Source: an uncultured Gammaproteobacteria bacterium (GTDB taxonomy: Bacteria; Patescibacteriota; Microgenomatia; Levybacterales; UBA12049). Taken from it: a DNA stretch of 61,807 nucleotides. Below, one piece after another: positions 1 to 52,953 of this stretch; positions within the stretch are counted from its first letter, which is position 1; every line of letters starts with the position of its first letter. Under the pieces are notes generated by a model. It worked only from the letters and a program-made list of their open reading frames with translations, was not told the DNA's origin and did not search any database. The stretch is from assembly GCA_964603935.1 (NCBI GenBank), contig CAZRWL010000003.1, positions 1 through 61,807 on the forward strand. The letters are read 5' to 3'. A program made the position numbers and the translations under genes.

Positions 1-544
1 ATGCTCCTATCACTCCGTCTATTGAAAACGTTGAATCCAAAACCTCAAGATATGCGATCTTACTTATATCTGACATATTCCCGGAAATAAGTTTCCGCTC
101 CTGTTCTTCCGCAAATTGCCTGAATCCATGAATAATAAAAAACGATGTAGATCCTACCACTGCAGCAAATGCAAGCATCGGATCTTTCTGTAAAGCAAAC
201 CAGACGATTGCCGAAAGAAGAACTGAGACGATAGCGAAAAACCACGCTCCCTGAGCTTGGAAAAATCTTTCTCCCTTCAAACCATAGTTTTTAGGTTCCA
301 AAAAAAGCCAACTGAAGAATAAGAAGACCATGAACACTCCTCCGCCCAAAAGAAGTAAAGGCGATGTCGCTTCAATCGCCTGCGCGACTTTAGGGTCCTG
401 AGAAAACGCAGCGAAAAATACTCCAACCAAGCCAATCTGCGGATTCGCAATCCAAACAATCAAAAGCGGCAAGAGTCCGCGGACAACGAAAACCGCAAAG
501 AGAAATCCCCACAATAAAAACCATCTTCTCGCTTTTTGACTCAT
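1..544 (-). CDS. DUF475/TerC-like integral membrane protein (partial, runs off window start)
   Basis: Manual minus-strand translation from ATG at 542-544 gives MSQKARRWFLLWGFLFAV...KIAYLEVLDSTFSIDGVIGA, open to position 1. It is multi-TM, and the LEvlDxxFSxDgV motif is typical of DUF475. It is absent from the ORF track because there is no stop in the window. Confidence 0.6.
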   Translation of the reverse strand, partial: MSQKARRWFLLWGFLFAVFVVRGLLPLLIVWIANPQIGLVGVFFAAFSQDPKVAQAIEATSPLLLLGGGVFMVFLFFSWLFLEPKNYGLKGERFFQAQGAWFFAIVSVLLSAIVWFALQKDPMLAFAAVVGSTSFFIIHGFRQFAEEQERKLISGNMSDISKIAYLEVLDSTFSIDGVIGA

Positions 545-3864: not shown

Positions 3865-4485
3865 TTAATTCTTGGTTCCGATAATTACAACTATCGGAGT
3901 TGAGGCGTCCTCCGGTAAAATTTCTACCGCACCAACGGTAAACGTATTTCCTAAAACATCTTTTAATCTATCTGTAAAAGCCTTAGCAACTGTCTTTTTC
4001 GCTTTTATAATTGTCTCCGTATAATCAGAATTGTCCGCGTTTCCAATTGCTGAGACTGTGAATCCTTCTTCTTCCAGGCTTATTTTTTGCCTTCCTGCCT
4101 CCCCGCTAATTCCTCCGCCATTTAGCATTTCAATTTCATATTGCGCAAGATCGATCACCGGCGTAGGTGATGGCTCAACTGTTGGCGTCGGAGTTATGGA
4201 AACAACATTGACTGTTTCCTTTTTGAATATTCCTTGTCTGTAAATAAAAATCCCTGTCAGTAAAACCAAAACTATGATAAAAATGAACAGTATTGGCCAC
4301 ATGTAGCTTTTTTCCTGAGGACTATCCGGCAAAGGCTGCTCTTCCTCAGCCATCTTTTCTTTGAAATCAGTCAGAGGATCCGCCTCTTGGATTACTTCAA
4401 TTCTTTCTGAAGTTTGAGTTATAACATCAGCAACAATCACTTGCTCCTTTTTTGTTTCTTTGTCTTTTTTTTGAACAGCGCTCAT
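3865..4485 (-). CDS. LytR_C domain-containing membrane protein
   Basis: N-terminal TM and a C-terminal IEMLNGGGISGEAGR...AIGNAD pattern typical of the LytR C-terminal domain. Confidence 0.55.
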   Translation of the reverse strand: MSAVQKKDKETKKEQVIVADVITQTSERIEVIQEADPLTDFKEKMAEEEQPLPDSPQEKSYMWPILFIFIIVLVLLTGIFIYRQGIFKKETVNVVSITPTPTVEPSPTPVIDLAQYEIEMLNGGGISGEAGRQKISLEEEGFTVSAIGNADNSDYTETIIKAKKTVAKAFTDRLKDVLGNTFTVGAVEILPEDASTPIVVIIGTKN

Positions 4486-7861: not shown

Positions 7862-9286
7862 TCAAATTTTTTCAATTTCCACTCCCTTTTTCGTATCCTT
7901 AATATTATACCCTAATTTTTTTATCTTATTCCTAACATGGTCTGCCTGAGTATAGCTTCCCTGTTTTCTCAAATGATTGCGCTGTTCAATCAATATTTGC
8001 ACCTCATTTGGCACAACAACTTTTATAAGTTTTCTTTTCTCGCGCGCATTTTCAAAATCAAGCCCCAACACCTGATCCATTTTGAACAAACTTTCCGCTT
8101 TGGCAGAATCGGGATAATCGGATTTTATTAATTCCCAAACGATTGCAAGCGCTTTCGCCATATTCAAATCATCATTGACTGCTTCCAAAAATCTTCCTTC
8201 ATATTCCGCGCAGCCAATTTTGGGATTGCGCAATTTGGAAACTTCTTCAATTAACCTTTTGTATGCAATTTGCGCTCCCTCCAAAGCATCCCAGGTAAAA
8301 TTCATCTCCTGCCTGTAATGAGTTTGCAAGAATAAATAGCGCAAAGCCAGCGGATCAAACCCTTTTTTCACAACATCTTCCACGGTAAAAATGTTTCCAA
8401 TGCTTTTACTCATCTTATTGCCGTCAACGTGCAGAAAATTATGATGAATCCAATATTTTACAAATTCTTTTTCTGTGGCGGCTTCCGATTGAGCAATCTC
8501 GTTGGTATGGTGAATTGGAATATGGTCAATCCCGCCTGTATGAATATCCAGAGTTTCTGTTTCCAAACCTTTGATGGCCATTGTCGAACACTCGATATGC
8601 CAGCCCGGAAATCCAACTCCCCAAGGACTTGCCCATTCCATCTGACGACGCGAAGCGGAGTCATCCTGAGCGGAGTCGAAGGATCTCCCTTCTGGATAAC
8701 TAAATTTCCAAAGCGCAAAATCAGTAACATTTTTCTTACCCTTAACAAATTCTACTCGTGCTCCTTTTTTTAACTCTTCTGACCTCTGACCTGTCAGAAT
8801 TCCGTAATCCGGAAACTTGGAAGTATCAAAATAAATTCCGTCCGAAATTTTGTAAGTAAAGCCTTTTTTCTCCAGCGCCTCAATAAAAACAATCTGTTCT
8901 TTTATGTAATCTGTCGCGTGCATCAGAATATCCGGTCTTTGAATATTTAAAACATCTATCGAATTGAAAAATTGTTTTTCAAATTTTTTCGCGATATCCC
9001 AGACGCTCATACCGAATTTACGTGCACCCTTTTCCATTTTGTCTTCACCCGTGTCGGAATCCGATGTCAAATGCCCCACATCCGTAATATTCATGGCCTG
9101 CTTTACTCTGAAACCGTTAAATTCCAAAACGCGAATGAGAATGTCGTCGCCAACATATCGCCTCATGTGTCCAATATGCTGATAATCATAAACCGTGGGC
9201 CCGCAAGTGTACATATTTACAATAGGCGGCTTAACCGGTTTAAAATCTTCTATTTTTCTTGTTAAGATATTGTATAGCTTCAACAT
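7862..9286 (-). CDS. cysS: cysteine--tRNA ligase
   Basis: HIGH (HIGHMR) and KMSKS motifs, and typical CysRS length. It contains a GC-rich in-frame insert (SFDSAQDDSASRR). Confidence 0.95.
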   Translation of the reverse strand: MLKLYNILTRKIEDFKPVKPPIVNMYTCGPTVYDYQHIGHMRRYVGDDILIRVLEFNGFRVKQAMNITDVGHLTSDSDTGEDKMEKGARKFGMSVWDIAKKFEKQFFNSIDVLNIQRPDILMHATDYIKEQIVFIEALEKKGFTYKISDGIYFDTSKFPDYGILTGQRSEELKKGARVEFVKGKKNVTDFALWKFSYPEGRSFDSAQDDSASRRQMEWASPWGVGFPGWHIECSTMAIKGLETETLDIHTGGIDHIPIHHTNEIAQSEAATEKEFVKYWIHHNFLHVDGNKMSKSIGNIFTVEDVVKKGFDPLALRYLFLQTHYRQEMNFTWDALEGAQIAYKRLIEEVSKLRNPKIGCAEYEGRFLEAVNDDLNMAKALAIVWELIKSDYPDSAKAESLFKMDQVLGLDFENAREKRKLIKVVVPNEVQILIEQRNHLRKQGSYTQADHVRNKIKKLGYNIKDTKKGVEIEKI

Positions 9287-12700: not shown

Positions 12701-12714
12701 AATATCTCCCTCGT

Positions 12715-12784
12715 GTCATTCCGAACTTGTTTCGGAATCTCAATTTTAAAATACGAGATGCTGAAATAAATTCAGCATGACACC
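12715..12784. repeat. REP-A element (variant lacking the central hairpin)
   Basis: gtcattccgaacttgtttcggaatctc ... gagatgctgaaataaattcagcatgacacc. It has two terminal hairpins in inverted orientation. Confidence 0.75.
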
Positions 12785-12792
12785 GTTAAAAT

Positions 12793-13982: not shown

Positions 13983-14007
13983 AATCTTCTCACCTCGCAT
14001 TCTTAAT

Positions 14008-14096
14008 GTCATGCTGAACTTGTTTCAGCATCTCCTTTGACTGCAAACAAGTCTGCCTGCTGGCAGGAGATCCTGAAATGAATTCAGGATGACACC
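14008..14096. repeat. REP-A element (complete tri-hairpin copy)
   Basis: Three hairpins: gtcatgctgaacttgtttcagcatctc, then ctgcctgctggcagg, then gagatcctgaaatgaattcaggatgacacc. Confidence 0.85.
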
Positions 14097-14102
14097 GATA
14101 GG

Positions 14103-15629
14103 TTACTTACTTTTCAAAACTACTTCTATTCTAACATTTTTCTTCGTAACATCTTTTATTGTTTTATTCAATATCTCCTGCGTTTTTGGCTCGCTTAATT
14201 TATCTTTATGAAATTTGAAATTGGTTTCTAAAATTAAACTTTTATTATCATAACTTTTTATTCTGCATCCGCGCAAGACCCCGGCTATAGAATGATTGTA
14301 AGCTTTTACTTTGTCTATCAGCGCGTTCCACAACGCATCATTCTCGCTGTATTTTGTCATGTCTTGTTGGGTAACGTTAAGCGGAACATCGGGCAAACGG
14401 GTGGCGGACAAAGGTGGACGGGTGGCAGAAGAGGAAGGGCTCCCGACAACGCGGACTGAGCTTGACGAAGGAGCATTGGCGGGAGGGAAACTTCTGACAG
14501 GACCCGATCCCACAACGGCCAAACCCCACTCGACGATTACTAACTCCAAAGGAATTTGCGGCAGAACTGCGTACTTTAATTCACCATACGCTTTTGACAA
14601 CAACTCTATTAGTTTTTTTACCTCCCCCATTTCCAAACTTGTCTGCGCTGCGAAACCCAAACGCTCTGACAAATTCTGAACTTCTGCTTTTAACAATAGG
14701 CTATTGTGCAAGGACTCAATAAGATTTTGCATAAAATGTCCAATGTCTATTCCTTCACCTACAAGCTTTGCAACTCCCTCCAAAGCGCTTTTTGTCTCTT
14801 TATTTTCAAAATTTCTTATCATTTGCGCTATTTGATATTCCATACTTGAGATTTTATGCTTGCTTTCAATCAAGTCTTTCGTAATCTTACCGTCTTTGGA
14901 AATTTGGGCCATCTCTTCCAAAATTTTTACCCCGTCCCTGAAACTTCCATCCGAAAGTCCGGCAATTAAGCTTAAAGCCTCTTTATCCGCAATTAAACCT
15001 TCTTTTTTTATTATTCTTTCGAATGACCTGACCAATTCTCCTCTTGTCGCTTTTTTGAATTGTATGCGCAAACAACGGGACAAAATCGTGTCGGGAACTT
15101 TGTGAGATTCAGTTGTGCAAAGAATAAAGACCACATGACTTGGAGGTTCTTCCAAAGTCTTAAGAAGCGCGTTAAATGCCTCCGTAGTTAACATGTGGAC
15201 TTCATCAATGATATAAACTTTTTTGCGCGCGCTTATCGGCGAAAGCTTTACTTTTTCACGCAGATCTCTTATCTCATCTATTCCCCTGTTAGAGGCTCCG
15301 TCTATTTCCAGAATATCCAAATTAGTTCCATTTGTAATGGACTTGCATTGATCGCACTTGTTGCACGGCTCCACATTAGCGTTAAGCGTTAAGGGTGAAG
15401 AGTGAAGGTTTTTTTTGTCTTTCCCCTTTCCGCTTTCCCCTTTCCCTTCACAATTAAGGGCCTTTGCGATAATCCGGGCAGTTGATGTTTTTCCCAGACC
15501 TTTGGGACCTGTGAAAAGAAAAGCATGCGAAATTTCGGAGCTCTCCAAAACACTATGGAGCTTATCTCTAACCTCTTTACTGTCTAATTCATCTATTGTC
15601 TGCGGACGGTATTTTCGATAAAAAACCAT
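14103..15629 (-). CDS. dnaX: DNA polymerase III subunit gamma/tau
   Basis: Walker A GPKGLGKTS, zinc module NC...EPCNKCDQC, and SRC motif SRCLRIQF. It carries REP-B and REP-D in-frame inserts. Confidence 0.95.
   Translation of the reverse strand: MVFYRKYRPQTIDELDSKEVRDKLHSVLESSEISHAFLFTGPKGLGKTSTARIIAKALNCEGKGESGKGKDKKNLHSSPLTLNANVEPCNKCDQCKSITNGTNLDILEIDGASNRGIDEIRDLREKVKLSPISARKKVYIIDEVHMLTTEAFNALLKTLEEPPSHVVFILCTTESHKVPDTILSRCLRIQFKKATRGELVRSFERIIKKEGLIADKEALSLIAGLSDGSFRDGVKILEEMAQISKDGKITKDLIESKHKISSMEYQIAQMIRNFENKETKSALEGVAKLVGEGIDIGHFMQNLIESLHNSLLLKAEVQNLSERLGFAAQTSLEMGEVKKLIELLSKAYGELKYAVLPQIPLELVIVEWGLAVVGSGPVRSFPPANAPSSSSVRVVGSPSSSATRPPLSATRLPDVPLNVTQQDMTKYSENDALWNALIDKVKAYNHSIAGVLRGCRIKSYDNKSLILETNFKFHKDKLSEPKTQEILNKTIKDVTKKNVRIEVVLKSK
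14420..14505. repeat. REP-B element (86-bp GC-rich), in-frame inside dnaX
   Basis: gggtggcagaagaggaagggctcccgacaacgcggactgagcttgacgaaggagcattggcgggagggaaacttctgacaggaccc aligns to 47968-48055 with only a handful of mismatches. Confidence 0.85.
15377..15450. repeat. REP-D element (LTLNA family), in-frame inside the dnaX zinc module
   Basis: tagcgttaagcgttaagggtgaagagtgaagg...ctttcccctttccgctttcccctttcccttcac. It encodes GKGESGKGKDKKNLHSSPLTLNA between NC and EPC. Confidence 0.6.
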
Positions 15630-15645
15630 ATCTTATTATTCCTTG

Positions 15646-15764
15646 TCATGCTGAACTGCGCCACCTCCGCTGAGGAAAGTCCTCTTGGAGGATTTCAGCA
15701 TCTTATTATAGTAAAGAAGCCTGCCTGTTGGCAGGAGATCCCGAAATAAATTCGGGATGACACC
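15646..15764. repeat. REP-A element with a nested ~38-nt insertion in the first hairpin loop
   Basis: Sequence reads gtcatgctgaa[ctgcgccacctccgctgaggaaagtcctcttggaggat]ttcagcatc ... ctgcctgttggcagg ... gagatcccgaaataaattcgggatgacacc. Confidence 0.8.
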
Positions 15765-15766
15765 GA

Positions 15767-16156
15767 TTAAGTCTCATGGTTTATACCCAAAAGATGCAGT
15801 AATCCATGCTCAATCAACTCATCCACCTTGTCATCAACCAAAACTTCTTCTTCCGATGCTTCTTTAATAACTTGAGGATAGGATATAACTATATCTCCAA
15901 GTCTCAAAATTTCACTCGGAAGATACGTTGATTCTCCTTCAGATAAGGAAAAGGATAAAATATTTCTTGTTTTATCCTCTCCCTTGTATTTAAGACTCAA
16001 AGCGCGCATTTTCCTGTCTCCGACAATAGCAACCGAAACCTCAACCGGGCCTTTGATTTCGTGTTGCGTTAATATCTTGAAAACAGTTTTTTTTATGCGT
16101 TTCCTATTAACCTTATACCTGCTTTCTACGAAAATGGGGATATTAACCTGCTCCAT
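15767..16156 (-). CDS. ybeY: rRNA maturation RNase YbeY
   Basis: C-terminal HGLLHLLGINHE metal-binding motif (HxxxHxxxxxH). Confidence 0.85.
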   Translation of the reverse strand: MEQVNIPIFVESRYKVNRKRIKKTVFKILTQHEIKGPVEVSVAIVGDRKMRALSLKYKGEDKTRNILSFSLSEGESTYLPSEILRLGDIVISYPQVIKEASEEEVLVDDKVDELIEHGLLHLLGINHET

Positions 16157-16354: not shown

Positions 16355-16377
16355 AATTCAACACCACCATTCTCAAT

Positions 16378-16465
16378 GTCATGCCGAATTTATTTCGGCA
16401 TCTCCTAGATACTAAGCAAACCTGTCTACTGGCAGGAGATCCTGAAATAAATTCAGGATGACACC
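16378..16465. repeat. REP-A element (complete)
   Basis: gtcatgccgaatttatttcggcatctc ... ctgtctactggcagg ... gagatcctgaaataaattcaggatgacacc. Confidence 0.85.
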
Positions 16466-16530
16466 AGCAAAACTATATTCTTATTTTACTCCAAACCCAA
16501 AACAGAGTAAATACCCAATCCTTTTAAATT

Positions 16531-17552: not shown

Positions 17553-17882
17553 TTACATTTTCGCAGATTTTCCTAGGGGTCCTAAGAGGTGGAAATGCAA
17601 ATGATCAATTAACTGCGCTCCTCCGCCATTTATTGCAATCCTGTATCCTTTATCTTCCAGTCCGAATTTTCTAATCATTTCCTGAGTTATCTTTACTAAC
17701 TTCATCATTAATAATTTATTATTTATCATTAATAAATCTTCAACATGTTTTTTGGGAATAATAAGTAAATGTATTGGCTTTAAAGGATTAATGTCCGGAA
17801 AAACCATCACCCAATCATCTTCATAGGTAAATTCTTTTGGTATTATCCTGTCTCTAATTTTACAAAAAATACAATCAGCCAT
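17553..17882 (-). CDS. HIT family (histidine triad) protein
   Basis: CIFCKI and HLHFHLLG (HxHxHxx). The track start at 17918 lies within REP-C, so ATG 17882 (MADCIFCKI) is preferred. Confidence 0.85.
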   Translation of the reverse strand: MADCIFCKIRDRIIPKEFTYEDDWVMVFPDINPLKPIHLLIIPKKHVEDLLMINNKLLMMKLVKITQEMIRKFGLEDKGYRIAINGGGAQLIDHLHFHLLGPLGKSAKM

Positions 17883-18000
17883 AATACTGCCAATACTACC
17901 AATTTCAAATACTACCAATCAATCATCAAATATAGAATCCAAAATTCTGCGTTAAGTTTTTTTGCATTGATTTGCTTATTGGGTTATTTGTTTATTTGAT
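17883..18000. repeat. REP-C element (AT-rich imperfect palindrome)
   Basis: aatactgccaatactaccaatttcaaatactaccaatcaatcatcaaatatagaat ... tttgcattgatttgcttattgggttatttgtttatt. The left arm is near-identical to 39044-39100. Confidence 0.8.
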
Positions 18001-18002
18001 TA

Positions 18003-18956
18003 TTACACTTTCTTTAAAACTTCTATTATTTTTTCTAAAGAAAGTGTTGTTGGTCTCATTTTAGGATTTTTTACAGATCCGTTGAGAAGCATCTTTTTTG
18101 ACACATGTAAATACCAAGTGGCATCAGAATCCATCTTGCTAAGTCTTTCGCAAACTAAAGTTAAGTCAATATTTGTTTTCCCATCCGATGGAACCGCCTT
18201 TATCCTTACATATCCTTTTCTCGGGTCTTTTCTTAAAACAATTGCATACCCCATTTTTTGGGATAATTTGATAACAGAGTCGTTAATTGTCTCAAATCCG
18301 ATTCCCTTCCCAAAACGGGTTTCGAATTCATGTCCGTTTTGCGCAATTTCTTTCTCAGCCCAAAGCCTATTTTCAAATGTGTGCAAAACCGCATCCAGAG
18401 ATTTACTTACAAATTCAACGTAATAATCATCTTGATTTGGAAATTGAATTTTAAGTCCCTCTAAAATACCCGCCAGATCAAATTCATGATAGTCAGCCAA
18501 CGGATCTTTGCGAAAAACCTCCTTAAAATGATCTATATCCACAACCACCTTCACCATTCTGCCAACCGCTTCCATTCTGTCCTCCCACTTCCTGCTCTCG
18601 TTACCCTGAACCACGAACTCTGAACCACGAACTCGTTTGACAAAGTCAAACGTAAGGCTTGCGCCACAAACTTTATCCGAAGCTGTCTGATGATGATCCA
18701 AAGGCCCCAAACCAGTATCAACATGAATAACCTCATCTTCCCCAATCTTCTCAATAGCGTCTAGCGCCGAGCGTCTAGCGTTCAGTTCTTCGCTTGAACT
18801 AGACGCTGAGCGCTGATTAACTAGACGCTGGAGACGCTCTCCTGCAGGAACGAATTTAACCAAAGCATCGCTCCAGTCGGGCAAAAACTTTTTAATCAGC
18901 CAAACCGAAGTAATCGCATCCATGTCAGGAGAACTGTGTGTAACAACAATTTTCAT
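18003..18956 (-). CDS. DHH family phosphoesterase
   Basis: HSSPDMDAITS (DxD) and GPLDHHQ (DHH) motifs. The likely start is MKIVVTH at 18956. It contains a compound palindromic insert and a 14-bp tandem repeat. Confidence 0.75.
   Translation of the reverse strand: MKIVVTHSSPDMDAITSVWLIKKFLPDWSDALVKFVPAGERLQRLVNQRSASSSSEELNARRSALDAIEKIGEDEVIHVDTGLGPLDHHQTASDKVCGASLTFDFVKRVRGSEFVVQGNESRKWEDRMEAVGRMVKVVVDIDHFKEVFRKDPLADYHEFDLAGILEGLKIQFPNQDDYYVEFVSKSLDAVLHTFENRLWAEKEIAQNGHEFETRFGKGIGFETINDSVIKLSQKMGYAIVLRKDPRKGYVRIKAVPSDGKTNIDLTLVCERLSKMDSDATWYLHVSKKMLLNGSVKNPKMRPTTLSLEKIIEVLKKV
18757..18838. repeat. compound GC-rich palindrome inside the DHH gene
   Basis: agcgtctagcg occurs twice, then a loop, then ctagacgct occurs twice (nested inverted repeats). 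It is translated in-frame as QRSASSSSEELNARRSALD. Confidence 0.7.
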
Positions 18957-23189: not shown

Positions 23190-23203
23190 AATTACTTCTC
23201 GTT

Positions 23204-23230
23204 GTCATGCTGAACTTATTTCAGCATCTC
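23204..23230. repeat. REP-A half element (first hairpin only)
   Basis: gtcatgctgaacttatttcagcatctc. Confidence 0.75.
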
Positions 23231-23239
23231 AGTTGAAAT

Positions 23240-28573: not shown

Positions 28574-29370
28574 TGTCAACAGATCAACAAATCCCACCTC
28601 GAAGGTGGATTAGCTTGGCACCCTTTCTTTCTACACCTTGTCTTCCAAGGTTAGGTGCTTGATTTGTTCTAGCCGTCTTGCGTAATCAACCCTGTCCATA
28701 ACAAACTGTCTATATTTTTCTTTTGACGGAAACAAATCTAAAACAATTTCTTTATCTGCAATCTGGGTCTTTTGATTTCCCAAATATTCTGGATAAGACG
28801 ACCATTGATAATTTTCCAACTGTTCCGGCTCCACCAAAAATGATGACGTCGGATTCAAATGTATATATCTTGATACATGCATCAACTGCTCGTCCGATTC
28901 AACCCTAACTCCCTTAAACGCTCCTTGAAACAGGGGGCCAATCCGCTCATGTTTGGTATTAAAATATTTAGTATAGCTATTTGTAAAATTAGCTGCAAAA
29001 ATTGAGACGCCGTTTTTTATCATCTGCTTAACTAAAAAGTGAAAATGGTTAGGCATTAAACAATAAGAGATAATTTTAATTAGCTTCTGATTTTCGCCGT
29101 GAACTTTTTCAATCAGTTTGATTTTTTCAGGCTCGGAAAGAACTAAGAATTTAGATAGCTTAAAGGGTAAATTTGCAAATCTATAAAAATCAAGCGTTTT
29201 CACCCCCCTCTCAAATTCCCTTTTGCTTGTGAATGTAGGTCTTTTTTCAACCCCTCGATTAAAAATGTGGTAAATCTCATCGTTAGCAAAAACGAACTTT
29301 CTATTAGTAGCCATAACTATACCTTACAGTAAAAAAGAGGATGTGTCAAGCTAGACCACCTCGAAGGTGG
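28574..29370 (-). mobile_element. IS200/IS605-like or RAYT unit: Y1 transposase gene flanked by identical hairpins
   Basis: tgtcaa...ccacctcgaaggtggat occurs on both sides of the gene, with hairpins at 28594-28608 and 29356-29370. Confidence 0.7.
28631..29314 (-). CDS. IS200-like / REP-associated tyrosine (HUH Y1) transposase
   Basis: HUH motif YCLMPNHFHFLV and catalytic Tyr region SRYIHLNP. Confidence 0.8.
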   Translation of the reverse strand: MATNRKFVFANDEIYHIFNRGVEKRPTFTSKREFERGVKTLDFYRFANLPFKLSKFLVLSEPEKIKLIEKVHGENQKLIKIISYCLMPNHFHFLVKQMIKNGVSIFAANFTNSYTKYFNTKHERIGPLFQGAFKGVRVESDEQLMHVSRYIHLNPTSSFLVEPEQLENYQWSSYPEYLGNQKTQIADKEIVLDLFPSKEKYRQFVMDRVDYARRLEQIKHLTLEDKV

Positions 29371-29383
29371 ATGTTGTTTGCGT

Positions 29384-29877: not shown

Positions 29878-30291
29878 TCACGAATTCGTTTGCGAACTTC
29901 GCGAATTATTAATAATGCGTTTATATGTTACTCCGTTGCTGCCAAAATAAGCAAGGATTCCAAGCTTCAAACCAGTCGTCTTTAGGTACATTAAAACTTG
30001 CTTAATATCCGACATATTGTTTTTATTACCCTTCTTAAGCTCTAATATAACAGACTCATTGATCAAAAAATCCAAATAATGCTTACCAATTGAATTATTG
30101 TCAATAGTAATTTGAACCAAAACTTCTCTCTTAAATGGAATTTTCCGTTTTGTCAAAAATATTTCAACCGCCTTCTGACAATACTTTTCTTGATAATTAG
30201 ATCCTAAATTCTTAAAAGCATCAAACAAAGCTCCCACAATCTCATAGCTCAACTCTTTATGTAAAATTTTATCACTTTGTTGATTTTTCAC
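29878..30291 (-). CDS. GxxExxY / PD-(D/E)XK nuclease-fold protein
   Basis: N-terminal helix ELSYEIVGALFDAFKNLGSNYQEKY and a D...ELK core (DFLINESVILELKK). It overlaps the rpsB 3' end by 20 nt. Confidence 0.65.
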   Translation of the reverse strand: MKNQQSDKILHKELSYEIVGALFDAFKNLGSNYQEKYCQKAVEIFLTKRKIPFKREVLVQITIDNNSIGKHYLDFLINESVILELKKGNKNNMSDIKQVLMYLKTTGLKLGILAYFGSNGVTYKRIINNSRSSQTNS

Positions 30292-35272: not shown

Positions 35273-35285
35273 ATCTTTCCCCTGT

Positions 35286-35312
35286 GTCATGCTGAACTCG
35301 TTTCAGCATCTC
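35286..35312. repeat. REP-A half element (first hairpin only)
   Basis: gtcatgctgaactcgtttcagcatctc. Confidence 0.75.
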
Positions 35313-35412
35313 ATTTTTGCTTTTCTACAATAACAAAAAGCTCAAGAAACTACAAGAGGAAATGTTGTGCAAACCAGGTTTGAAATAGCTAGACAATGCG
35401 GATGCAATGCTT

Positions 35413-35670
35413 TTATCTGTACAGTTTGCTGTGGGAGTCAATTTTTACAAAGACTGCGTTTTCTAAAGTTTTTATATAAATTGCTCGTAAATCGCCACCT
35501 ATATTTATACTTCTGTATCCCTGATATTCTCCGCTTAAAGCGTGATTGTTCAATATTGGATTGAATGGATCTTTTTCAAAAAGAAGTTGTCTCTCCTGAA
35601 ATTTTTTCTTTATTTTAGAAGGAAGTTTCTTGAAATATTTTAATAAGTCCTTATGATAGTTAATTATCAT
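35413..35670 (-). CDS. type II toxin, RelE/ParE superfamily
   Basis: 85 aa with 4-nt overlap to the upstream antitoxin gene. The pattern LSGEYQGYRSINIGGDLRAIY is RelE/YafQ-like. Confidence 0.75.
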   Translation of the reverse strand: MIINYHKDLLKYFKKLPSKIKKKFQERQLLFEKDPFNPILNNHALSGEYQGYRSINIGGDLRAIYIKTLENAVFVKIDSHSKLYR

Positions 35671-35942
35671 AGGGAATCAAGATATTTATTTGCTTCTATA
35701 GCGCTTTGAAAAGGACCAACTATATTTCTTTTGTGCTTAATGTCTTTTTCAACTCTAGCTACCAGTTTTTCAAGTTCCGGAGTCATTTGCGGAGTATCGG
35801 AAAAAATCACTTCTCTGGTTCTTATAAAATTTCGAAGCGCGGCATTAATAACATCACTAAGGCTCAAACCCAGCGCTTTGGCAGCCTCGGCCGCATTTTT
35901 CTTAACTTCCTTATCTGCTCTGATATGAATTACGGTTTGCAT
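35667..35942 (-). CDS. type II antitoxin, RelB/DinJ family
   Basis: MQTVIHIRADKEVKKNAAEAAKALGLSLSDVINAALRNFI has an RHH DinJ-like N-terminus. Upstream TTGACA-18-TATACT lies at 35954-35983 on the minus strand. Confidence 0.75.
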   Translation of the reverse strand: MQTVIHIRADKEVKKNAAEAAKALGLSLSDVINAALRNFIRTREVIFSDTPQMTPELEKLVARVEKDIKHKRNIVGPFQSAIEANKYLDSL

Positions 35943-36029
35943 AATATAACAAAAGTATACACAAATGTTACTTAATTTGTCAATACCCAAAATGTGCAAC
36001 CAAAGTTTTTCCGCGGATGCAATTATTTT

Positions 36030-36614
36030 TTATTTTAGCAAACCTTCTTTTTTAATTCGCCTGAATAAAACCATTGAGGAGACCTTAAATTTTTCCGGAA
36101 GAAATTCCAAATACGGGATTGCGAAATCTTCTTCTTTTGAAAGCTGGTTCTTCAAAGCTTTGTTGACTTCCTCTTTCAATGGCTTATCGGGAACCAAAAC
36201 GCAACCGGCAAAAATGTTCGCTTGTCTTTCCAGCCAATCATAATCTTCATTAGACATATTATCTTGATATCTAAAATATTCCTCAGGGGTATTAAATAAC
36301 CCCATGCAATATATTTCTTTATGCAGAATCATGTGTCCAATTTCATGCGCTAAGGTAAATCTCGTTCTTTCTAAAAACTTTTCAAACACAGATGAATCAA
36401 TGGTTATCTCATCACATTTTGAGTTAATGAATCCGTCTATATCGAATTTTTCCTTTAAACCTAATACCGCAGTTAACTTAATTCCGAGCCTTAGCTCTAT
36501 GATTTCATCTATTGGTATGGGAATTGTTCTCTCTTTATGATGCTTTTCCAAAAAAATCTCTGTCTGTTTCTTTATGGCGGAGTAAGTGAGGATTGGGGCG
36601 GAAATTTTATTCAT
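36030..36614 (-). CDS. ImmA/IrrE family metallo-endopeptidase (COG2856/DUF955)
   Basis: HEIGHMILH zinc motif. There is an 8-nt overlap with the upstream XRE gene. Confidence 0.8.
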   Translation of the reverse strand: MNKISAPILTYSAIKKQTEIFLEKHHKERTIPIPIDEIIELRLGIKLTAVLGLKEKFDIDGFINSKCDEITIDSSVFEKFLERTRFTLAHEIGHMILHKEIYCMGLFNTPEEYFRYQDNMSNEDYDWLERQANIFAGCVLVPDKPLKEEVNKALKNQLSKEEDFAIPYLEFLPEKFKVSSMVLFRRIKKEGLLK

Positions 36615-38261: not shown

Positions 38262-38375
38262 AATAACCCAATACTACCAGTAAACAAATAGTCCAATCAA
38301 TAAACCAATTCCCAATTCTAAATTCTGTATTTTACATTGATTTGTTTATTGGGTTATTTGCCTATTTGTTTATTA
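38262..38375. repeat. REP-C element (divergent copy)
   Basis: aataacccaatactaccagtaaacaaatagtccaatcaataaaccaatt ... ttacattgatttgtttattgggttatttgcctatttgtttatta. The right arm supplies the last tmk codons (VINK stop). Confidence 0.7.
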
Positions 38376-39043: not shown

Positions 39044-39150
39044 TAATACTACCAATACTACCAATTTCAAATACTACCAATCAATCATCAAATATAGAAT
39101 TTTAAATTTTGCATTGATTTGCATATTGGGTTATTTGTTTATTGGGTTAT
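39044..39150. repeat. REP-C element
   Basis: taatactaccaatactaccaatttcaaatactaccaatcaatcatcaaatatagaat ... tttgcattgatttgcatattgggttatttgtttattgggttatttt. The right arm encodes the dcd C-terminus (NNPINK stop). Confidence 0.8.
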
Positions 39151-39715
39151 TTTCCTCGTGTATTCTGCTTTCGTTCGGGCCGTTTTGAATTTTGTATTTT
39201 GCTTGGGCTTTTTTCGCGTATGGAACTTCCGCGGCGCTTGTTAGTTCTTCAAAAGTCATGGCGCAAATTCTCATTCCCGGAGTTAATTTGACAGCCATTC
39301 TTCCCAAATTACCAAGCTCCAAAACGCATTTCCCGTCCCATCCCGGATCAAAAATTGAAGCTGTTGAATGGACAACTATTCCTAGCCTTCCCAAAGAACT
39401 TCTTCCTTCAAGCCTGCCCATCAGATCCGGGGCGATTTTTACTCTTTCCAAAGTTACAGCCAGCACGAAATCTCCGGGCTGCATCACAAAACTTTCTCCT
39501 TTTTTCACTTTTACTTCTTTGGTAATTTCGTTGGAATAATCTTTTTTTGCGGGATCAATGTAAGCGTTTCTGCTGTGGTCAAAAACCCGGAAAGTACTGC
39601 CAAGACGAAGATCAATGGAGCAAGAACCAAGCTGAGTTTTCAGATCGGGTTTGGGAGTGATAATAATTCTGTCTTGCAGAAAAGCTTTTTTAATATCCCC
39701 ATCCGCCAAAATCAT
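39131..39715 (-). CDS. dcd: dCTP deaminase
   Basis: GSCSIDLRLG and GRSSLGRLGIVVHSTASIFDPGWDGKCVLELGN, with the catalytic Glu retained. Confidence 0.9.
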   Translation of the reverse strand: MILADGDIKKAFLQDRIIITPKPDLKTQLGSCSIDLRLGSTFRVFDHSRNAYIDPAKKDYSNEITKEVKVKKGESFVMQPGDFVLAVTLERVKIAPDLMGRLEGRSSLGRLGIVVHSTASIFDPGWDGKCVLELGNLGRMAVKLTPGMRICAMTFEELTSAAEVPYAKKAQAKYKIQNGPNESRIHEENNPINK

Positions 39716-46800: not shown

Positions 46801-47153
46801 AACCTACACCAACACCCACCCCTATTCCCGTAAAAACAGTTAGCGTTTTAAATAAAGGAAGTTTTCCATTGTCAATTATAAATGTCTCTGATTCCAGCAT
46901 TAACTTCACATGGAGAGATATTGGCACAGCTTACAAATATACTGTTGAATATTTCTATGGAGCTGCCAATATAAAATATAGTGTAAATAATACTCTTTCT
47001 TTATCTCCTGTTACCGCTCCTCCCGTTAATAGGCAGTATAAAAGTACGGTTAATTTGAGCACAAAACAAAGTATGCATATGCGAATGAAAGCTTGCAGAG
47101 GAATAAACGCTAATTGTTCATTTTCGGATGAACTTTTTATCACTACTAAATAG
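43857..47153 (+). CDS. large secreted/anchored metzincin-like zinc metalloprotease with IPT/TIG and Pro/Thr linkers
   Basis: N-terminal signal anchor, HELGHSLGVLHA (HExxHxxGxxH), an IPT/TIG-like segment KISKIDPQTGNIGTEITIFGSGF, and TPTPTPKPTATPTLKPTPTPTP linkers. Confidence 0.7.
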   Translation: MFARIREKVIALRQKIALSNKKLIGLVIVLLTVIALPLIVIASQQEQDIRQHASEPTSSPNLTNQQEASSATTKDAEQIELLTNQLFQFNKKLTGDVGSLSEEDQTARNRATANLTEIAKKRKALLLQVIEEDPELFLSIALKQTMQSSMPAAIQEYLEKEVTVEGKTEVLHIDDFKNPANSRFNYFLKIGNEKINLFPTQELPIPSGVKVRIKGIQLDNNIVTTADSMSFQVLEAAPKPESVGDQKTLVLLIRFKDSGDPPFTKEKAHDLIFNGQFQKFYKEQSYNQVSFSGDVFGWFSLTYNNTHQACDVIYSKTISNVIDIPKLVADNNIELGIYSRLIFVVDTNYSGCSFVGTFETTINGKTYRFSEAAVGAHNYTNPWFNHPFEWTELDFTLSHELGHSLGVLHANGWDCKDQTLYGDCTHIEYGNYFDTMGIGSFSLHFNAFYKELLGWMNSSSTLLISTSGVYTLNPLELDSDKKFAKIQIQNSNVIPYDLEYRKGIGFDANLNNVTLLSNQSGLFINHIMTDPALPLNYSYTHLLDITPSSKFWADDIDDAALNGEKIFTDPGRGIAIGPIIKTDASSITFEVNLAIPSCVRQKPLASTVYISNPVVAGGFGTIDIKLTNADGFGCGESKFHITPTLPLGWKIIDIHPSDNIVIDADGKSSIYITFNPPENTPVGDYSLSYDIVNLQSGLKTHAELTTTIKPALKISKIDPQTGNIGTEITIFGSGFSEDASYNKISFSNPQGYAITNSKLFQLPTNEQVLKFTVPETICASGGLGAPGILGGGCSPKSTPSGTYGINVYNDFSGSNTMNFQVIEPPTPTPDLTPIPINWKTDSVSLQADNFFIKMDNRIFKPNSNFKLHSDSGKPTFTTSTLEATWLEGKTEMRLFIYFSIDANNQWKVTEMRTYDGKTPGNWLYYLGGESGKLGVPFANSNYSKQSKDGKGYVNFGKIKLEPFLNLVTPTPTPKPTATPTLKPTPTPTPIPVKTVSVLNKGSFPLSIINVSDSSINFTWRDIGTAYKYTVEYFYGAANIKYSVNNTLSLSPVTAPPVNRQYKSTVNLSTKQSMHMRMKACRGINANCSFSDELFITTK

Positions 47154-48668
47154 ATAGCTTCTTATCTCCCCAACCAAATATAAAGAACCCGTAACGACAA
47201 TAATTGCCCTATTGTTAAATTGCTTCATTGCTAAATTGCTCATAACTAATGCTTTCTCCAGGGCTTTTTGCGAGTCTTTTTCAACGGCAACCTTAACATC
47301 TTTCTTAATACTTAATACTTCATACTTAATACTTTCCGCGTCCGCGGAAGCGTGTAAGCTAACATCTGTTTTTGCGCTAAACTCCGTAACAATAATTTCA
47401 TCCGCTACTTTTACAATTTCCCTAAGCATTTTTTTAATATCTTTATCGAATTTAAAACCAATTATAAAAATCTTCTTTTTTTTTGGGAAGAGTTTTTTAA
47501 GACTTTTTAGAAACTCTTTCATTTTTACGGGATTATGCGCGCCGTCGAGAACAATTGTTGCCTTCTTGTCATGCTGAACTGGTTTCAGCATCTCATTCTT
47601 TCGTAAAGAGACCTGCCTGCGGGCAGGAGATCCCGAAACAAGTTCGGGATGACATTTTATAACCTCAAACCGCCCCGGGAAAAAGGCTGTTGACAAAGCT
47701 TTTCTAATATCTTTTTCCAAAACTTTCTTGTCCCTCGAAGCTTCAGCGAAGTGGGAAAACCCAAACTTTTTTAATTGCAATACTGCTTCAACTGCCAAAC
47801 TCGCATTCTCTTTCTGATAATCTCCCAACAAAGATAATTTGTAATTTTCAATAATTGACTCATCAAAATCTTTTCCAAGTCTGAATAATTTTGCTCCAAC
47901 CTTTTCACATCTATCTTCAATTATTTTAATTACCGAAGACTTCTTTACTCCCGATATGACAACTAAAGGGGTGGCAAAAGAGGAAGGGCTCCCGACAGCG
48001 CGGACTGAGCCTGTCGAAGGAGCACTGGCGGGAGGGATTACTTTTGACAGGACCCCGTGTAATTTTATAATCCCCGCTTTGGTTCTGGCGATTTTCTCAA
48101 TTGTTTTTCCCAAAATATCCGTGTGGTCCAAACCCACATTAGTCAGAACCGCAACCAAAGGATAAAGCGTGTTCGTCGCGTCAAACTCCCCTCCCATCCC
48201 CACTTCCGCAACCGCGATATCTACTTTCCGGTCTACAAAGTATTTAAACGCCATTGCTATTAAAATCTCAAAATACGACGGAGCTCCAACCGGCATCTTC
48301 CTCATTAGTTCAATAGTCTGAATCATTGAACTGACAATGTCCGTAAATTTTTCATCCGAAATTTGCTCCCCATTTATTTGCAATCTTTCATTTACTTTTT
48401 GCAGGTGCGGGGAGATTGTTAAACCAACCTTATAACCTGCGGTTTTCAAAATATGGGAAATTAGATATGCAGTTGAACCTTTCCCTGATGTTCCGCCAAC
48501 CAAAATTGATTTAAATTTTTCCTGCGGGTCCCCCAAAAGAGACAAAAAAATCCGCATTCTTTCCAGCGGATCATGATGTCTTAGGAATTGCGGATCGATT
48601 TTATAATAAATCTTTCCAATAAAACTTTCCAGATATTCCAGGGCTTGCTTATAATTATTAGTCTTCAT
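47118..48668 (-). CDS. folC: folylpolyglutamate synthase / dihydrofolate synthase
   Basis: Mur ligase P-loop GTSGKGST, with FPGRFEVI ... LDGAHNP. It contains complete REP-A and REP-B copies in-frame. Its last 14 codons lie antisense to the end of the metalloprotease gene. Confidence 0.9.
   Translation of the reverse strand: MKTNNYKQALEYLESFIGKIYYKIDPQFLRHHDPLERMRIFLSLLGDPQEKFKSILVGGTSGKGSTAYLISHILKTAGYKVGLTISPHLQKVNERLQINGEQISDEKFTDIVSSMIQTIELMRKMPVGAPSYFEILIAMAFKYFVDRKVDIAVAEVGMGGEFDATNTLYPLVAVLTNVGLDHTDILGKTIEKIARTKAGIIKLHGVLSKVIPPASAPSTGSVRAVGSPSSFATPLVVISGVKKSSVIKIIEDRCEKVGAKLFRLGKDFDESIIENYKLSLLGDYQKENASLAVEAVLQLKKFGFSHFAEASRDKKVLEKDIRKALSTAFFPGRFEVIKCHPELVSGSPARRQVSLRKNEMLKPVQHDKKATIVLDGAHNPVKMKEFLKSLKKLFPKKKKIFIIGFKFDKDIKKMLREIVKVADEIIVTEFSAKTDVSLHASADAESIKYEVLSIKKDVKVAVEKDSQKALEKALVMSNLAMKQFNNRAIIVVTGSLYLVGEIRSYLFSSDKKFIRK
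47161..47185. repeat. 25-nt exact direct repeat partner of 42992-43016
   Basis: cttatctccccaaccaaatataaag is present at both coordinates in the same orientation. Confidence 0.9.
47568..47654. repeat. REP-A element (complete), in-frame inside folC
   Basis: gtcatgctgaactggtttcagcatctc ... ctgcctgcgggcagg ... gagatcccgaaacaagttcgggatgaca. It is translated as CHPELVSGSPARRQVSLRKNEMLKPVQHD. Confidence 0.85.
47968..48055. repeat. REP-B element, in-frame inside folC
   Basis: ggggtggcaaaagaggaagggctcccgacagcgcggactgagcctgtcgaaggagcactggcgggagggattacttttgacaggaccc. It is translated as PPASAPSTGSVRAVGSPSSFAT. Confidence 0.85.
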
Positions 48669-49316: not shown

Positions 49317-49324
49317 TTATTGTT

Positions 49325-51358: not shown

Positions 51359-51361
51359 AAT

Positions 51362-52288: not shown

Positions 52289-52289
52289 T

Positions 52290-52949: not shown

Positions 52950-52953
52950 TTTT

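What the first reader, a model, noticed from the sequence alone, without database searches (positions are those of the whole stretch)
14420..14505. REP-B: an ~86-bp GC-rich element shared in-frame by dnaX and folC
Positions 14420-14505 (dnaX) and 47968-48055 (folC) align end to end with only a handful of substitutions, although the two genes are otherwise unrelated. Both copies are translated on the minus strand into PPA(N/S)APS..SVR(V/A)VGSPSS(S/F)AT. In DnaX the copy lies in the linker after domain III. In FolC it interrupts AGIIKLHG...PLVVISG. The segment is also open on the opposite strand, which generates the spurious track ORFs 14311-14679 and 47956-48165. Together with REP-A, folC carries two different repeat insertions and dnaX also carries two (REP-B and REP-D).
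Basis: seen in the sequence. Interest (0 to 1): 0.75.

Follow-up and report, generated by a model that had tools for sequence, protein, structure and literature searches.

The report
Translated palindromic mobile repeat in CPR genes

Summary
Window 14418-14507 (dnaX) and 47967-48056 (folC) are two copies of one 90-nt (30-codon) imperfect palindrome. They are about 91% identical, and the window holds no other copy.

The same element was found in 24 further distinct loci from independent assemblies, all annotated as Patescibacteria where an organism is named. It occupies 12 independent in-frame sites: IF-2, LeuRS, CarB, transketolase, TsaD, AlkD, GT4 and WecG glycosyltransferases, a DHH protein, a Wzy-like protein, DnaX and FolC. 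It also occurs at about four sites outside long ORFs.

The 23-bp hairpin covaries strongly (96.7% of cells paired, 0/500 shuffles). Only two of the five open frames are ever used, and these encode the most Pro/Ser/Ala/Gly-rich peptides. Insertions fall in loops or interdomain linkers.

Orthologous copies range from near-consensus to fully decayed, and the closest relative (about 94% nt identity in dnaX) has a different element in the same linker.

Best reading: a translated, selfish, hairpin-dependent mobile repeat that works like Rickettsia palindromic elements but is unrelated to them. How it moves is unknown. I found no target-site duplication. A RAYT-like Y1 transposase gene lies in the window but is not linked to the element. 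Rfam has no match, and the papers I could search do not describe it.

The parts
14418..14507 (-). REP-B copy 1. A 90-nt (30-codon) palindromic unit in the dnaX linker, of the '86-nt core' type, translated as SGPVRSFPPANAPSSSSVRVVGSPSSSATR (DnaX codons 375-404).
   Evidence: (113 bits).
47967..48056 (-). REP-B copy 2. A 90-nt unit in folC, of the '87-nt core' type, translated as GVLSKVIPPASAPSTGSVRAVGSPSSFATP (FolC codons 205-234).
   Evidence: (114 bits).
14103..15629 (-). Host gene dnaX (DNA polymerase III gamma/tau, 508 aa). The element lies just after domain III (Pfam gamma3, aa 267-366).
47118..48668 (-). Host gene folC (folylpolyglutamate/dihydrofolate synthase, 516 aa). The element splits the Mur_ligase_M domain at a short loop.
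14311..14679 (+). Spurious opposite-strand ORF (122 aa), kept open by the GC-rich element.
47956..48165 (+). Spurious opposite-strand ORF (69 aa), kept open by the GC-rich element.

Best explanation
REP-B is a small non-autonomous mobile DNA repeat of Patescibacteria (CPR). It is 90 nt long, exactly 30 codons. Its consensus is [Y]N-GGGTCCTG-(6-nt variable arm)-GT(TT/AAT)CCCTCCCGCCARTGCTCCTTC-(about 7-nt variable loop)-TCAGTCCGCGYTGTCGGGAGCCCTTCCT-(complementary 6-nt arm)-(C/T)CACCC-N'-T, where N and N' are complementary.

It lands in protein-coding genes as well as between genes. Copies survive where they fall in a surface loop or interdomain linker, and in one of two reading frames that give a harmless flexible peptide rich in Pro, Ser, Ala and Gly. 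There the copy is transcribed and translated as part of the host protein, here DnaX and FolC.

The hairpin and the invariant core are features that the element needs for its own propagation, probably recognition as single-stranded or extruded hairpin DNA by an enzyme acting in trans. They are not features that the host gene needs. Once inserted, copies decay towards host composition, are partly deleted in frame, or are replaced by other repeat families at the same permissive spots.

**Shown:** the repeat, its hairpin covariation, in-frame insertion in 12 unrelated gene sites, the frame bias, the loop and linker locations, and decay and turnover.

**Inferred:** translation, selfishness and mobility.

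**Speculative:** mobilisation by a hairpin-recognising HUH/Y1 (RAYT- or IS200-like) enzyme, which I rate at about 0.25.
For: 1. **Discrete unit with the same ends in unrelated flanks.** After removing duplicates and one chance hit, I have 20 near-consensus copies from at least 8 independent projects, plus further copies found with the covariance model.
2. **Hosts by Pfam.** These are IF-2, LeuRS, CarB, transketolase, GT4, WecG, DHH and Wzy_C+TPR, TsaD, AlkD, and DnaX and FolC.
3. **Hairpin.** It has 23 pairs, and 96.7% of cells are paired against 40-54% when partners are slid. 0/500 shuffles reach the observed covariation, and 5 of 7 pairs in the outer helix change on both sides. The N/V versus S/A difference between the two window copies is one such compensated pair. 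RNA folding z-scores are -5.0 and -3.7.
4. **Conservation is at nucleotide level.** The core is invariant at all codon positions, while the covarying arm and the loop change amino acids freely.
5. **Frame use.** All 9 plus-orientation sites read ..PPA.APS..SVR.VGSPSS.. and all 3 minus-orientation sites read EEGLPT.RTE..EGALAGG. Three other open frames are never used as the main frame. The chance of this is (2/5)^12, about 2e-5. The used frames have the most P/S/A/G/T and the fewest C/W/F/L/M.
6. **Location.** Insertions lie between Pfam domains or in loops. In the AlphaFold model of FolC, pLDDT is below 50 at residues 211-231 with confident flanks. FolC residues 203-236, which contain the 30-aa insert, align to residues 203-206 of 1o5z.
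7. **Life cycle.** DnaX-linker copies score 101, 83, 51, 48, 29 and 28 bits with progressive loss of pairing, yet the frame stays open. A 14-nt 3' footprint, CTGGCGCCACCCCT, remains at the FolC site in L036. The closest relative L029 is about 94% identical in dnaX but has an unrelated element across the whole ~145-nt linker.
8. **Copies outside long ORFs** (L001, L013/L023, L014/L021, L030 898-989), and a sister family with the same termini but another core.
9. **No TSD or target motif**. A Y1_Tnp/RAYT-like gene is present in the window and in one other REP-B contig.
Against: - Translation is not shown directly, because no proteome or ribosome data are available.
- No filled versus empty pair was found between near-identical genomes, so the insertion event, its exact ends and the absence of a TSD are all inferred.
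- Near-consensus copy number is low, about 2 per genome or per 60 kb.
- Copies at the same codon in genomes with saturated synonymous sites (third-position identity about 0.5) are 97-98% identical, and identity drops exactly at the element ends. Simple insertion followed by neutral decay does not predict this. It requires repeated insertion at the same site, conversion from other copies, or selection in place.
- The hairpins flanking the RAYT-like gene (ATCCACCTTCGAGGTGG) are unrelated to REP-B.
- The assignment of two loci to Saccharimonadales and Paceibacterota rests on MAG binning, which I could not check.
Confidence: 0.7

Rival explanations
1. The hairpin is a cis-acting nucleic-acid signal that the host needs, such as a binding site for a chromosomal protein or an RNA structure that controls mRNA processing or translation speed. 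On this reading, selection keeps it in place inside these genes.
For: Copies at orthologous sites are 97-98% identical while third-codon positions of the host gene are about 50% identical, and identity drops exactly at the element ends. Unpaired core segments are invariant across 20 copies, while the outer arm only keeps its pairing. GC of about 62-70% is kept in a 38% GC genome.
Against: In other lineages the same sites hold decayed copies whose hairpin is lost (L031, L035). At one site only a 14-nt footprint remains, and in the closest relative the site holds an unrelated element. Copies occur in both orientations relative to transcription and outside genes. The host genes share no pathway.
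Confidence: 0.12
2. The element is an intervening sequence that never reaches the protein. It would be removed from the mRNA, or skipped by the ribosome as with phage T4 gene 60 or the mitochondrial 'byp' elements, which are also GC-rich hairpins in AT-rich genes.
For: It is a stable GC-rich hairpin inside AT-rich coding sequence. The predicted protein model gives it no structure.
Against: The unit is exactly 30 codons, and only 2 of the 5 open frames are used at 12 independent sites. Removal before translation would not require either property. Decayed copies have lost the hairpin yet keep the reading frame open and the length similar. Rfam has no ribozyme or intron match. There is no take-off/landing codon pair or stop codon at the 5' edge.
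Confidence: 0.04
3. The shared segment is a functional protein module, such as a flexible linker or interaction motif, that spread between genes by recombination because the peptide is useful.
For: The same peptide is conserved in many DnaX and FolC orthologues. It always sits in linkers or loops.
Against: Synonymous positions are as conserved as non-synonymous ones. Compensatory base changes alter residues (N/V versus S/A; RS, AA, AG, SN in the arm). The same DNA is used in reverse orientation to give an unrelated peptide in TsaD, CarB and Wzy. Copies also exist outside long ORFs.
Confidence: 0.05
4. The repeat is an assembly or binning artefact: a chimeric join or a contaminant sequence.
For: Repeat-mediated chimeras do occur. 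Contig L015 joins the tsaD left flank to the infB right flank through the element.
Against: In the window, each copy has the same gene intact and in frame on both sides. The exact DnaX protein is on 2 contigs. The same insertions appear in independent NCBI, ENA, JGI and Logan assemblies, with copy-specific substitutions.
Confidence: 0.01

Closest known systems
Rickettsia palindromic elements (RPE; Ogata et al. 2000, Science 290:347, as summarised in PMC10969869)
   Same: Both are short palindromic repeats in a reduced, AT-rich genome. Both insert in frame into many unrelated housekeeping genes and also occur between genes. Both encode a conserved peptide at positions judged compatible with the protein fold, and the mobilising enzyme is unknown for both.
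   Different: REP-B shows no evidence of sequence relationship to RPEs, although this was not tested directly. It comes from a different phylum (Patescibacteria). It is shorter, at 90 nt against roughly 100-150 nt, and is exactly 30 codons. It is strongly GC-rich relative to its host. It is used in both orientations with one benign frame each. Near-identical copies sit at the same codon in deeply diverged genomes. Several families swap at the same linker.
REP/REPIN elements mobilised by RAYTs (REP-associated tyrosine transposases, HUH/Y1 family)
   Same: Both are hairpin repeats whose stems keep pairing through compensatory change, and neither has a target-site duplication. A Y1_Tnp protein whose best NCBIfam match is 'REP-associated tyrosine transposase' is encoded in the window. 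It is flanked by two identical hairpins.
   Different: REPs are extragenic, whereas most REP-B copies are inside genes. The hairpins flanking the RAYT-like gene are unrelated to REP-B. The NCBIfam score (42 bits) is below the curated cut-off of 80. REP-B has no conserved GTAG-like 5' motif.
Classical bacterial MITEs, including intragenic ERIC/RU elements (Delihas 2007, PMC2759123; review PMC10969869)
   Same: Both are small, non-autonomous, structured and multi-copy, and are occasionally fused in frame to host ORFs.
   Different: REP-B has no TSD. Its terminal inverted repeats are only about 5 nt within a long hairpin. No parent IS with the same ends was found in 331 kb. Intragenic location is the rule for REP-B rather than the exception.
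Mitochondrial GC clusters, double-hairpin elements and translational-bypass 'byp' elements of yeasts and fungi (from my own knowledge, not checked here)
   Same: Both are mobile GC-rich hairpins that invade AT-rich coding sequence.
   Different: Byps need not be in frame and are skipped by the ribosome. REP-B keeps frame, length and a benign peptide, which argues that it is translated.

Membership tests
RPE-like in-frame palindromic repeats (functional class) | A short repeated element with a long imperfect palindrome. | tested here: met
   23-bp hairpin, 96.7% of cells paired, covariation reached by 0/500 shuffles. Folding z-scores -5.0 and -3.7.
RPE-like in-frame palindromic repeats (functional class) | Inserted in frame into several unrelated protein-coding genes. 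| tested here: met
   12 independent sites in 12 gene families. The frame is kept and there are no stops.
RPE-like in-frame palindromic repeats (functional class) | Insertion sites are compatible with the protein fold (surface loops or linkers). | tested here: met
   pLDDT below 50 at residues 211-231 between confident elements. Residues 203-236, containing the 30-aa insert, align to residues 203-206 of 1o5z. Insertions lie between Pfam domains in IF-2, LeuRS, transketolase, GT4 and DnaX.
RPE-like in-frame palindromic repeats (functional class) | The inserted segment is translated. | not testable with these tools
   Only indirect evidence: the 30-codon unit, 2 of 5 open frames used, and decayed copies that stay open.
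Rickettsia RPE families proper (homology) | Sequence similarity to RPE-1 to RPE-10, or occurrence in Rickettsiales. | not tested
   No RPE sequences were on hand. The host is Candidatus Levybacteria. Rfam gives no match. I do not file it as a member.
Classical MITE | Target-site duplication flanking the element. | tested here: not met
   No direct repeat and no target motif in the 13 copies whose boundaries the script could set, out of 22 examined. The outermost flanking bases are complementary rather than duplicated.
Classical MITE | Terminal inverted repeats shared with an autonomous IS. | tested here: inconclusive
   The termini GGGGTCCTG / CACCCC(T) are shared with a sister family. No longer element with these ends was found in 331 kb. 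An IS481-like rve gene at 56084-56932 was not examined further.
REP/REPIN-RAYT system | A RAYT gene in the genome. | tested here: inconclusive
   Window 28631-29314: Pfam Y1_Tnp scores 31.6 bits, above its cut-off of 23. NCBIfam REP_Tyr_transpos scores 42 bits, below its cut-off of 80. An HUH motif (NHFHF) and the motif RYIHLNP are present.
REP/REPIN-RAYT system | The RAYT gene is flanked by its cognate REP, which is the same sequence as the dispersed repeat. | tested here: not met
   The flanking hairpins ATCCACCTTCGAGGTGG occur only at the two flanks and are unrelated to REP-B. The L021 homologue has yet another flanking palindrome.
REP/REPIN-RAYT system | Extragenic location. | tested here: not met
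   12 of about 16 sites lie inside genes.
Self-splicing intron / intein / ribozyme | A match to a known catalytic RNA family, or an intein-sized protein-splicing domain. | tested here: not met
   Rfam gathering-threshold and E-value scans find nothing relevant. A 30-aa insert is far below intein size.

The most novel reading that the evidence does not exclude
REP-B would be one of a guild of 'coding-compatible' palindromic elements that act as exchangeable loop and linker cassettes in essential Patescibacteria proteins. It would be kept young at fixed codons by a site-faithful process, either homing-like re-insertion or conversion from master copies. This would explain two observations: 97-98% identical copies sit at the same codon in genomes whose synonymous sites are saturated, and closely related genomes carry different families in the same linker. 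If so, these elements would be a main source of the lineage-specific protein insertions seen in these genomes, and a new mode of intragenic mobility.
Probability: 0.25. Interest if true: 0.8.

Novelty: new member of a known kind. Interest (0 to 1): 0.6.

Why it matters
The mobilisation mechanism of selfish DNA that lives inside essential protein-coding genes has stayed unknown since it was described in Rickettsia in 2000. REP-B is an independent system that behaves the same way in Patescibacteria, a very large and mostly uncultured radiation with tiny genomes. Thousands of metagenomic genomes are available for this group.

- It offers many natural filled, decayed, deleted and replaced states to compare.
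- It gives a concrete source for the odd lineage-specific insertions in Patescibacteria proteins.
- It warns annotators about spurious antisense ORFs, inflated protein lengths and repeat-mediated chimeric contigs such as L015.
- It gives structural biologists a map of loops that tolerate 30-residue inserts in DnaX, FolC, IF-2, LeuRS and other proteins.

Tried and rejected
- **Peptide profile search.** I ran a five-frame peptide profile of the element against 5.8 billion proteins to count host families and frame use. Only 5 weak hits came back (AlkD proteins), because short, compositionally biased matches score too low.
- **Peptide phmmer.** A phmmer search with the 34-aa DnaX peptide against 1.84 billion representatives gave 3 low-complexity hits and nothing useful.
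- **Viral contigs.** The scan gave 0 hits, so there is no sign of a phage vector.
- **Rfam.** No family matched.
- **TSD and target motif.** None found.
- **Longer elements with the same termini.** None found in 331 kb. Only a sister short family and an enlarged copy turned up.
- **Link from the RAYT-like gene to REP-B.** Its flanking hairpins are unrelated to REP-B.
- **Stop-free property.** It is not special once GC content is matched: 27% of shuffles have at least 5 open frames.
- **Larger recombination tract.** Rejected as an explanation for the near-identical orthologous copies, because identity drops exactly at the element ends.
- **Literature.** The four searches that ran found nothing on such elements in CPR or Patescibacteria.
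- **DNA for P0012 and P0159.** Not available.
Full report
**1. Observation**

Window 14420-14505 and 47969-48055 are two copies of one sequence. They are 93% identical over a 69-nt core (family D7) and 90.8% identical over 87 nt with E 2.5e-23. None of 100 shuffles gave a match. Both copies lie on the minus strand inside long ORFs:
- 14103-15629 is DnaX, with Pfam DNA_pol3_delta2, AAA and gamma/tau domain III at aa 267-366.
- 47118-48668 is FolC, with Mur_ligase_M and Mur_ligase_C.

The window is about 38% GC. The element is about 62% GC as a 99-nt match and 70% GC as the 90-nt consensus. A covariance model built later finds only these two copies in the window.

**2. Organism**

The best FolC and DnaX relatives are Candidatus Levybacteria MAGs (Patescibacteria/CPR). 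A syntenic relative, L029 (GCA_964473135.1), is about 90% identical in DNA over 20 kb.

**3. Anatomy**

The element folds into a long imperfect hairpin (-35.6 and -33.0 kcal/mol, z -5.0 and -3.7; DNA parameters).

One scan of 185,579 representative genomes and one scan of JGI/ENA metagenome contigs, both with a 21-base core pattern, returned 4 + 24 loci. One is a chance hit in high-GC DNA (L026). Several are the same locus from different assemblies. One contig (L015) is a chimera joined through the repeat.

I aligned twenty distinct copies (alignment A4). They show:
- constant termini, GGGTCCTG...CACCC;
- a hypervariable but complementary 6-nt arm, with the pairs CAGAAG/CTTCTG, CAAAAG/CTTTTG, CGCCAG/CTGGCG, CGCGGG/CCCGCG, CAGCAG/CTGCTG and CTCCAA/TTGGAG;
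- an invariant core;
- a variable loop of about 7 nt.

For the 23-pair structure, 96.7% of cells are standard pairs, against 40-54% when partners are slid. None of 500 shuffles reaches the observed covariation, and 5 of 7 outer-helix pairs change on both sides. Columns 54-76 were fixed by my search pattern and carry no information. The covarying arm lies outside that pattern.

The base just outside each end also covaries (G-C 13, C-G 3, A-T 3). With a 5' pyrimidine (in the 86-nt-core type) and a 3' T, the unit is 90 nt, or 30 codons, in both length variants. The 86- and 87-nt cores differ by one base (GTTTCC versus GTAATCC). This is why DnaX reads GPVRS and FolC reads VLSK before both converge on PPA.APS.

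**4. Where it sits**

Hosts by Pfam (unless another call is given):

| Host | Loci |
|---|---|
| IF-2 | L002 = L016 = L019 |
| GT4 glycosyltransferase, interdomain linker | L006, L027, L022, L028 |
| Wzy_C + TPR protein | L007 |
| DHH protein | L009 = L012 |
| WecG/TagA | L010, L020 |
| CarB | L018 |
| LeuRS | L024 |
| Transketolase | L004 |
| TsaD | L003 = L011 = L017 |
| AlkD | L008 |
| DnaX and FolC | window |

That makes 12 independent in-frame sites. Insertions fall between Pfam domains or split a domain at a loop.

For FolC, 26 orthologues show the insert between AGIIKxx and (L/I)VV(I/V)(S/T)GV. Some orthologues have nothing there and others carry different repeat-derived peptides. Against the solved Thermotoga FolC (1o5z), query residues 203-236 stand where the chain has residues 203-206. 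A second insert, REP-A at residues 340-371, stands where the chain has 314-317. An AlphaFold2 model (mean pLDDT 77.9) has pLDDT below 50 at exactly 211-231, 305-313 and 344-367, between confident elements.

About four sites are not inside any ORF longer than about 110 aa: L001, L013/L023 and L014/L021, and L030 898-989. The L030 copy fills the spacer between frr and an M50 peptidase gene.

**5. Is it translated?**

There is no direct evidence. Four indirect lines point to translation.
- The unit is exactly 30 codons.
- Five of six frames are open, which is expected at this GC content (27% of shuffles). Yet all 9 plus-orientation sites use the frame ..PPA.APS..SVR.VGSPSS.. and all 3 minus-orientation sites use EEGLPT.RTE..EGALAGG. 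I calculate (2/5)^12, about 2e-5. The 14 used was an over-count of sites.
- The two used frames are the richest in P/S/A/G/T (24/30 and 18/29) and the poorest in C/W/F/L/M. The unused frames are Leu-rich, Cys/Arg-rich, or very basic with Trp.
- Decayed copies that have lost the hairpin remain open and of similar length.

A few protein-only cases (FolC site 2 in P0002 and P0012; DnaX in P0153) read the 5' half in another frame and shift back in the loop. L007 is a DNA-level case of the same kind in the minus orientation: a 1-nt deletion in the loop shifts the far half into another frame.

**6. Level of constraint**

Conservation is at the nucleotide level. The core does not vary at any codon position. 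The covarying arm and the loop change residues freely. The N/V versus S/A difference between the two window copies is a single compensated base pair, columns 37/64 of A4. I read this as a core under sequence constraint, an arm under pairing constraint only, and an unconstrained loop. This is the pattern expected if selection acts on the element's ability to propagate.

**7. Dynamics**

In DnaX orthologues the linker holds REP-B in every state of preservation. Covariance-model scores are 101 (L034), 83 (L033), 51 (L032), 48 (L030), 29 (L035) and 28 (L031) bits, and more pairs are broken as the score falls.

The same linker in other orthologues holds at least four other recurring peptides. The same families recur in FolC.

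The closest relative, L029, is 93.7% and 96.3% identical on either side of the linker. Its whole ~145-nt linker is unrelated and carries another element. Intergenic spacers between the two genomes are likewise occupied by different repeats.

At the FolC site, L036 keeps only CTGGCGCCACCCCT, the 3' end of the element, in frame.

The following observation is not explained by insertion and neutral decay. The FolC copies of the window and L005 are 98% identical (87/89), and the DnaX copies of the window and L034 are 97% identical (86/89). The host genes are 70-73% identical in nucleotides and about 50% identical at third positions. Identity drops exactly at the element ends. The GT4 site holds different subtypes in L006 and L027 at the same codon. 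The possible explanations are repeated insertion at the same spot, conversion from other copies, or selection in place. I could not separate them.

**8. Mechanism of movement**

I found no target-site duplication and no target motif. This rests on the 13 copies whose boundaries the script could set, out of 22 examined. A sister family shares the termini GGGTCCTGTC...GCCACCCC but has another core (L007 2313-2405; L012 minus strand), and L028 holds an enlarged copy. No longer element with these ends was found in 331 kb.

The window encodes a 227-aa Y1_Tnp protein (28631-29314, minus strand). Pfam scores it at 31.6 bits, above the cut-off. Its best NCBIfam match is 'REP-associated tyrosine transposase' at 42 bits, below the cut-off of 80. 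HUH (NHFHF) and RYIHLNP motifs are present. It is flanked by two identical hairpins, ATCCACCTTCGAGGTGG, found nowhere else in the window or in the loci.

A 37%-identical homologue lies about 2.2 kb from a REP-B copy in L021 and is flanked by its own palindrome. This shows that the right class of enzyme is present. It does not link that enzyme to REP-B.

**9. Comparison with known systems**

REP-B works like the Rickettsia palindromic elements, which are palindromic repeats fused in frame into many housekeeping genes at fold-compatible positions (review PMC10969869). I do not claim it as a member of those families by homology.
- It fails the MITE test for a target-site duplication.
- It fails two REP/RAYT tests: extragenic location, and identity with the hairpins that flank the RAYT gene.
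- It matches no Rfam family.
- The four literature searches that ran found no description of such elements in CPR or Patescibacteria. Absence from that library is not proof of novelty.

**10. Verdict**

The element is a new family, and together with its sister families a guild, of in-frame palindromic repeats in Patescibacteria. I class it as a new member of a known kind. The near-identity of copies at orthologous sites and the cassette-like turnover of linkers are the parts that go beyond what is described for Rickettsia and deserve follow-up.

**Caveats**
- Translation and mobility are inferred.
- The presence outside Levybacteria rests on the binning of two MAG contigs (L001, L004).
- Copy counts come from an exact-pattern search that favours young copies.

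Noticed in passing
window 28631-29314 (-), with hairpins at 28594-28610 and 29356-29372: A 227-aa IS200-like Y1 transposase lies between tsf and frr. Its best NCBIfam match is 'REP-associated tyrosine transposase', below the curated cut-off. It is flanked on both sides by the identical hairpin ATCCACCTTCGAGGTGG, each followed by TTGACA. A 37%-identical homologue in L021 (3446-4126) is flanked by its own palindrome, TCTGCAAGGCGTCGCCTTGCAGA, and a third copy of that palindrome lies inside the gene.
   Followed up: partly
window 47562-47654 (in folC); also 12707-12791, 14000-14103, 15642-15771, 16365-16472, 23191-23236, 35278-35318: REP-A is a second, more abundant hairpin repeat family (TGTCATGCTGAAC..GTTCAGCATCTC units, often paired). 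It is mostly intergenic but sits in frame in folC as CHPELVSGSPARRQVSLRKNEMLKPVQHDKK. In the 1o5z alignment, FolC residues 340-371 stand where the solved chain has residues 314-317.
   Followed up: partly
window about 47730-47765 (FolC aa 303-313, SHFAEASRDKK): This is a third short insert in FolC, with pLDDT below 50. It is shared with a few orthologues (P0015, P0016) and absent from most.
   Followed up: no
L029's dnaX has a different palindromic repeat at the same place (AGCGTCTAGTTAATCAGCG...CGCTAGACGCT). That repeat also occurs at three other places across the two genomes.
   Followed up: partly
L015 (Ga0209323_10009206) 3949-4035: This contig has the tsaD left flank of L003 and the infB right flank of L002, joined through a REP-B copy. 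It is a repeat-mediated assembly chimera or a real recombinant.
   Followed up: no
L007 2313-2405; L012 about 215-312 (-); L028 1555-1683: L007 and L012 hold a sister family with REP-B termini (GGGTCCTGTC...GCCACCCC) but a different core (..CCCCC(G/A)TCCGAC..GCTCGA(C/T)GGGG..). L028 holds a 128-nt enlarged REP-B with an extra internal segment.
   Followed up: partly
DnaX orthologues P0127-P0199 (linker after domain III) and FolC orthologues P0002-P0063: At least four other recurring linker peptides appear in both protein families. They are NAD.KADEH.S.IQRQSV.KSASISEKT, AGPAELHPRPTSSVAPLPSGARQGSPALVT, QPRVSDDARLQNPNNQSL..SKSRLQ..FSSSESGL and SLEPNGNTR.ASENKS. This suggests many repeat families share the same permissive sites.
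   Followed up: partly
window 17882-18004, 38321-38374 and 39044-39151: AT-rich direct repeats (TAATACTACCAATACTACCAATTTCAAATACTACCAATCAATCATC... and ..TTGATTTGCTTATTGGGTTATTTGTTTATT) lie upstream of several minus-strand nucleotide-metabolism genes. They may be shared regulatory or promoter modules.
   Followed up: no
window 29878-30291 (-), 35667-36614 (-), 43090-43806 (+), 56084-56932 (-): Several accessory genes sit among housekeeping operons: a GxxExxY/PD-(D/E)XK protein between rpsB and tsf, a RelB-like gene next to an M78/IrrE-like peptidase gene, a BRO-N protein, and an IS481-like rve transposase.
   Followed up: no
window 48768-55979 (+): A cluster encodes NuoB-like, Mrp/NuoL-like (two copies), NuoH-like and fused 30-kDa/49-kDa subunits. 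It resembles a membrane-bound group 4 hydrogenase or Mrp-type complex, which is unusual cargo for a Levybacteria genome.
   Followed up: no
window 8791-8881 versus L029 16829: L029 lacks 90 nt (30 codons) of conserved CysRS sequence that the window has. This could be a real in-frame deletion or an assembly error in L029. It is not a repeat element.
   Followed up: partly
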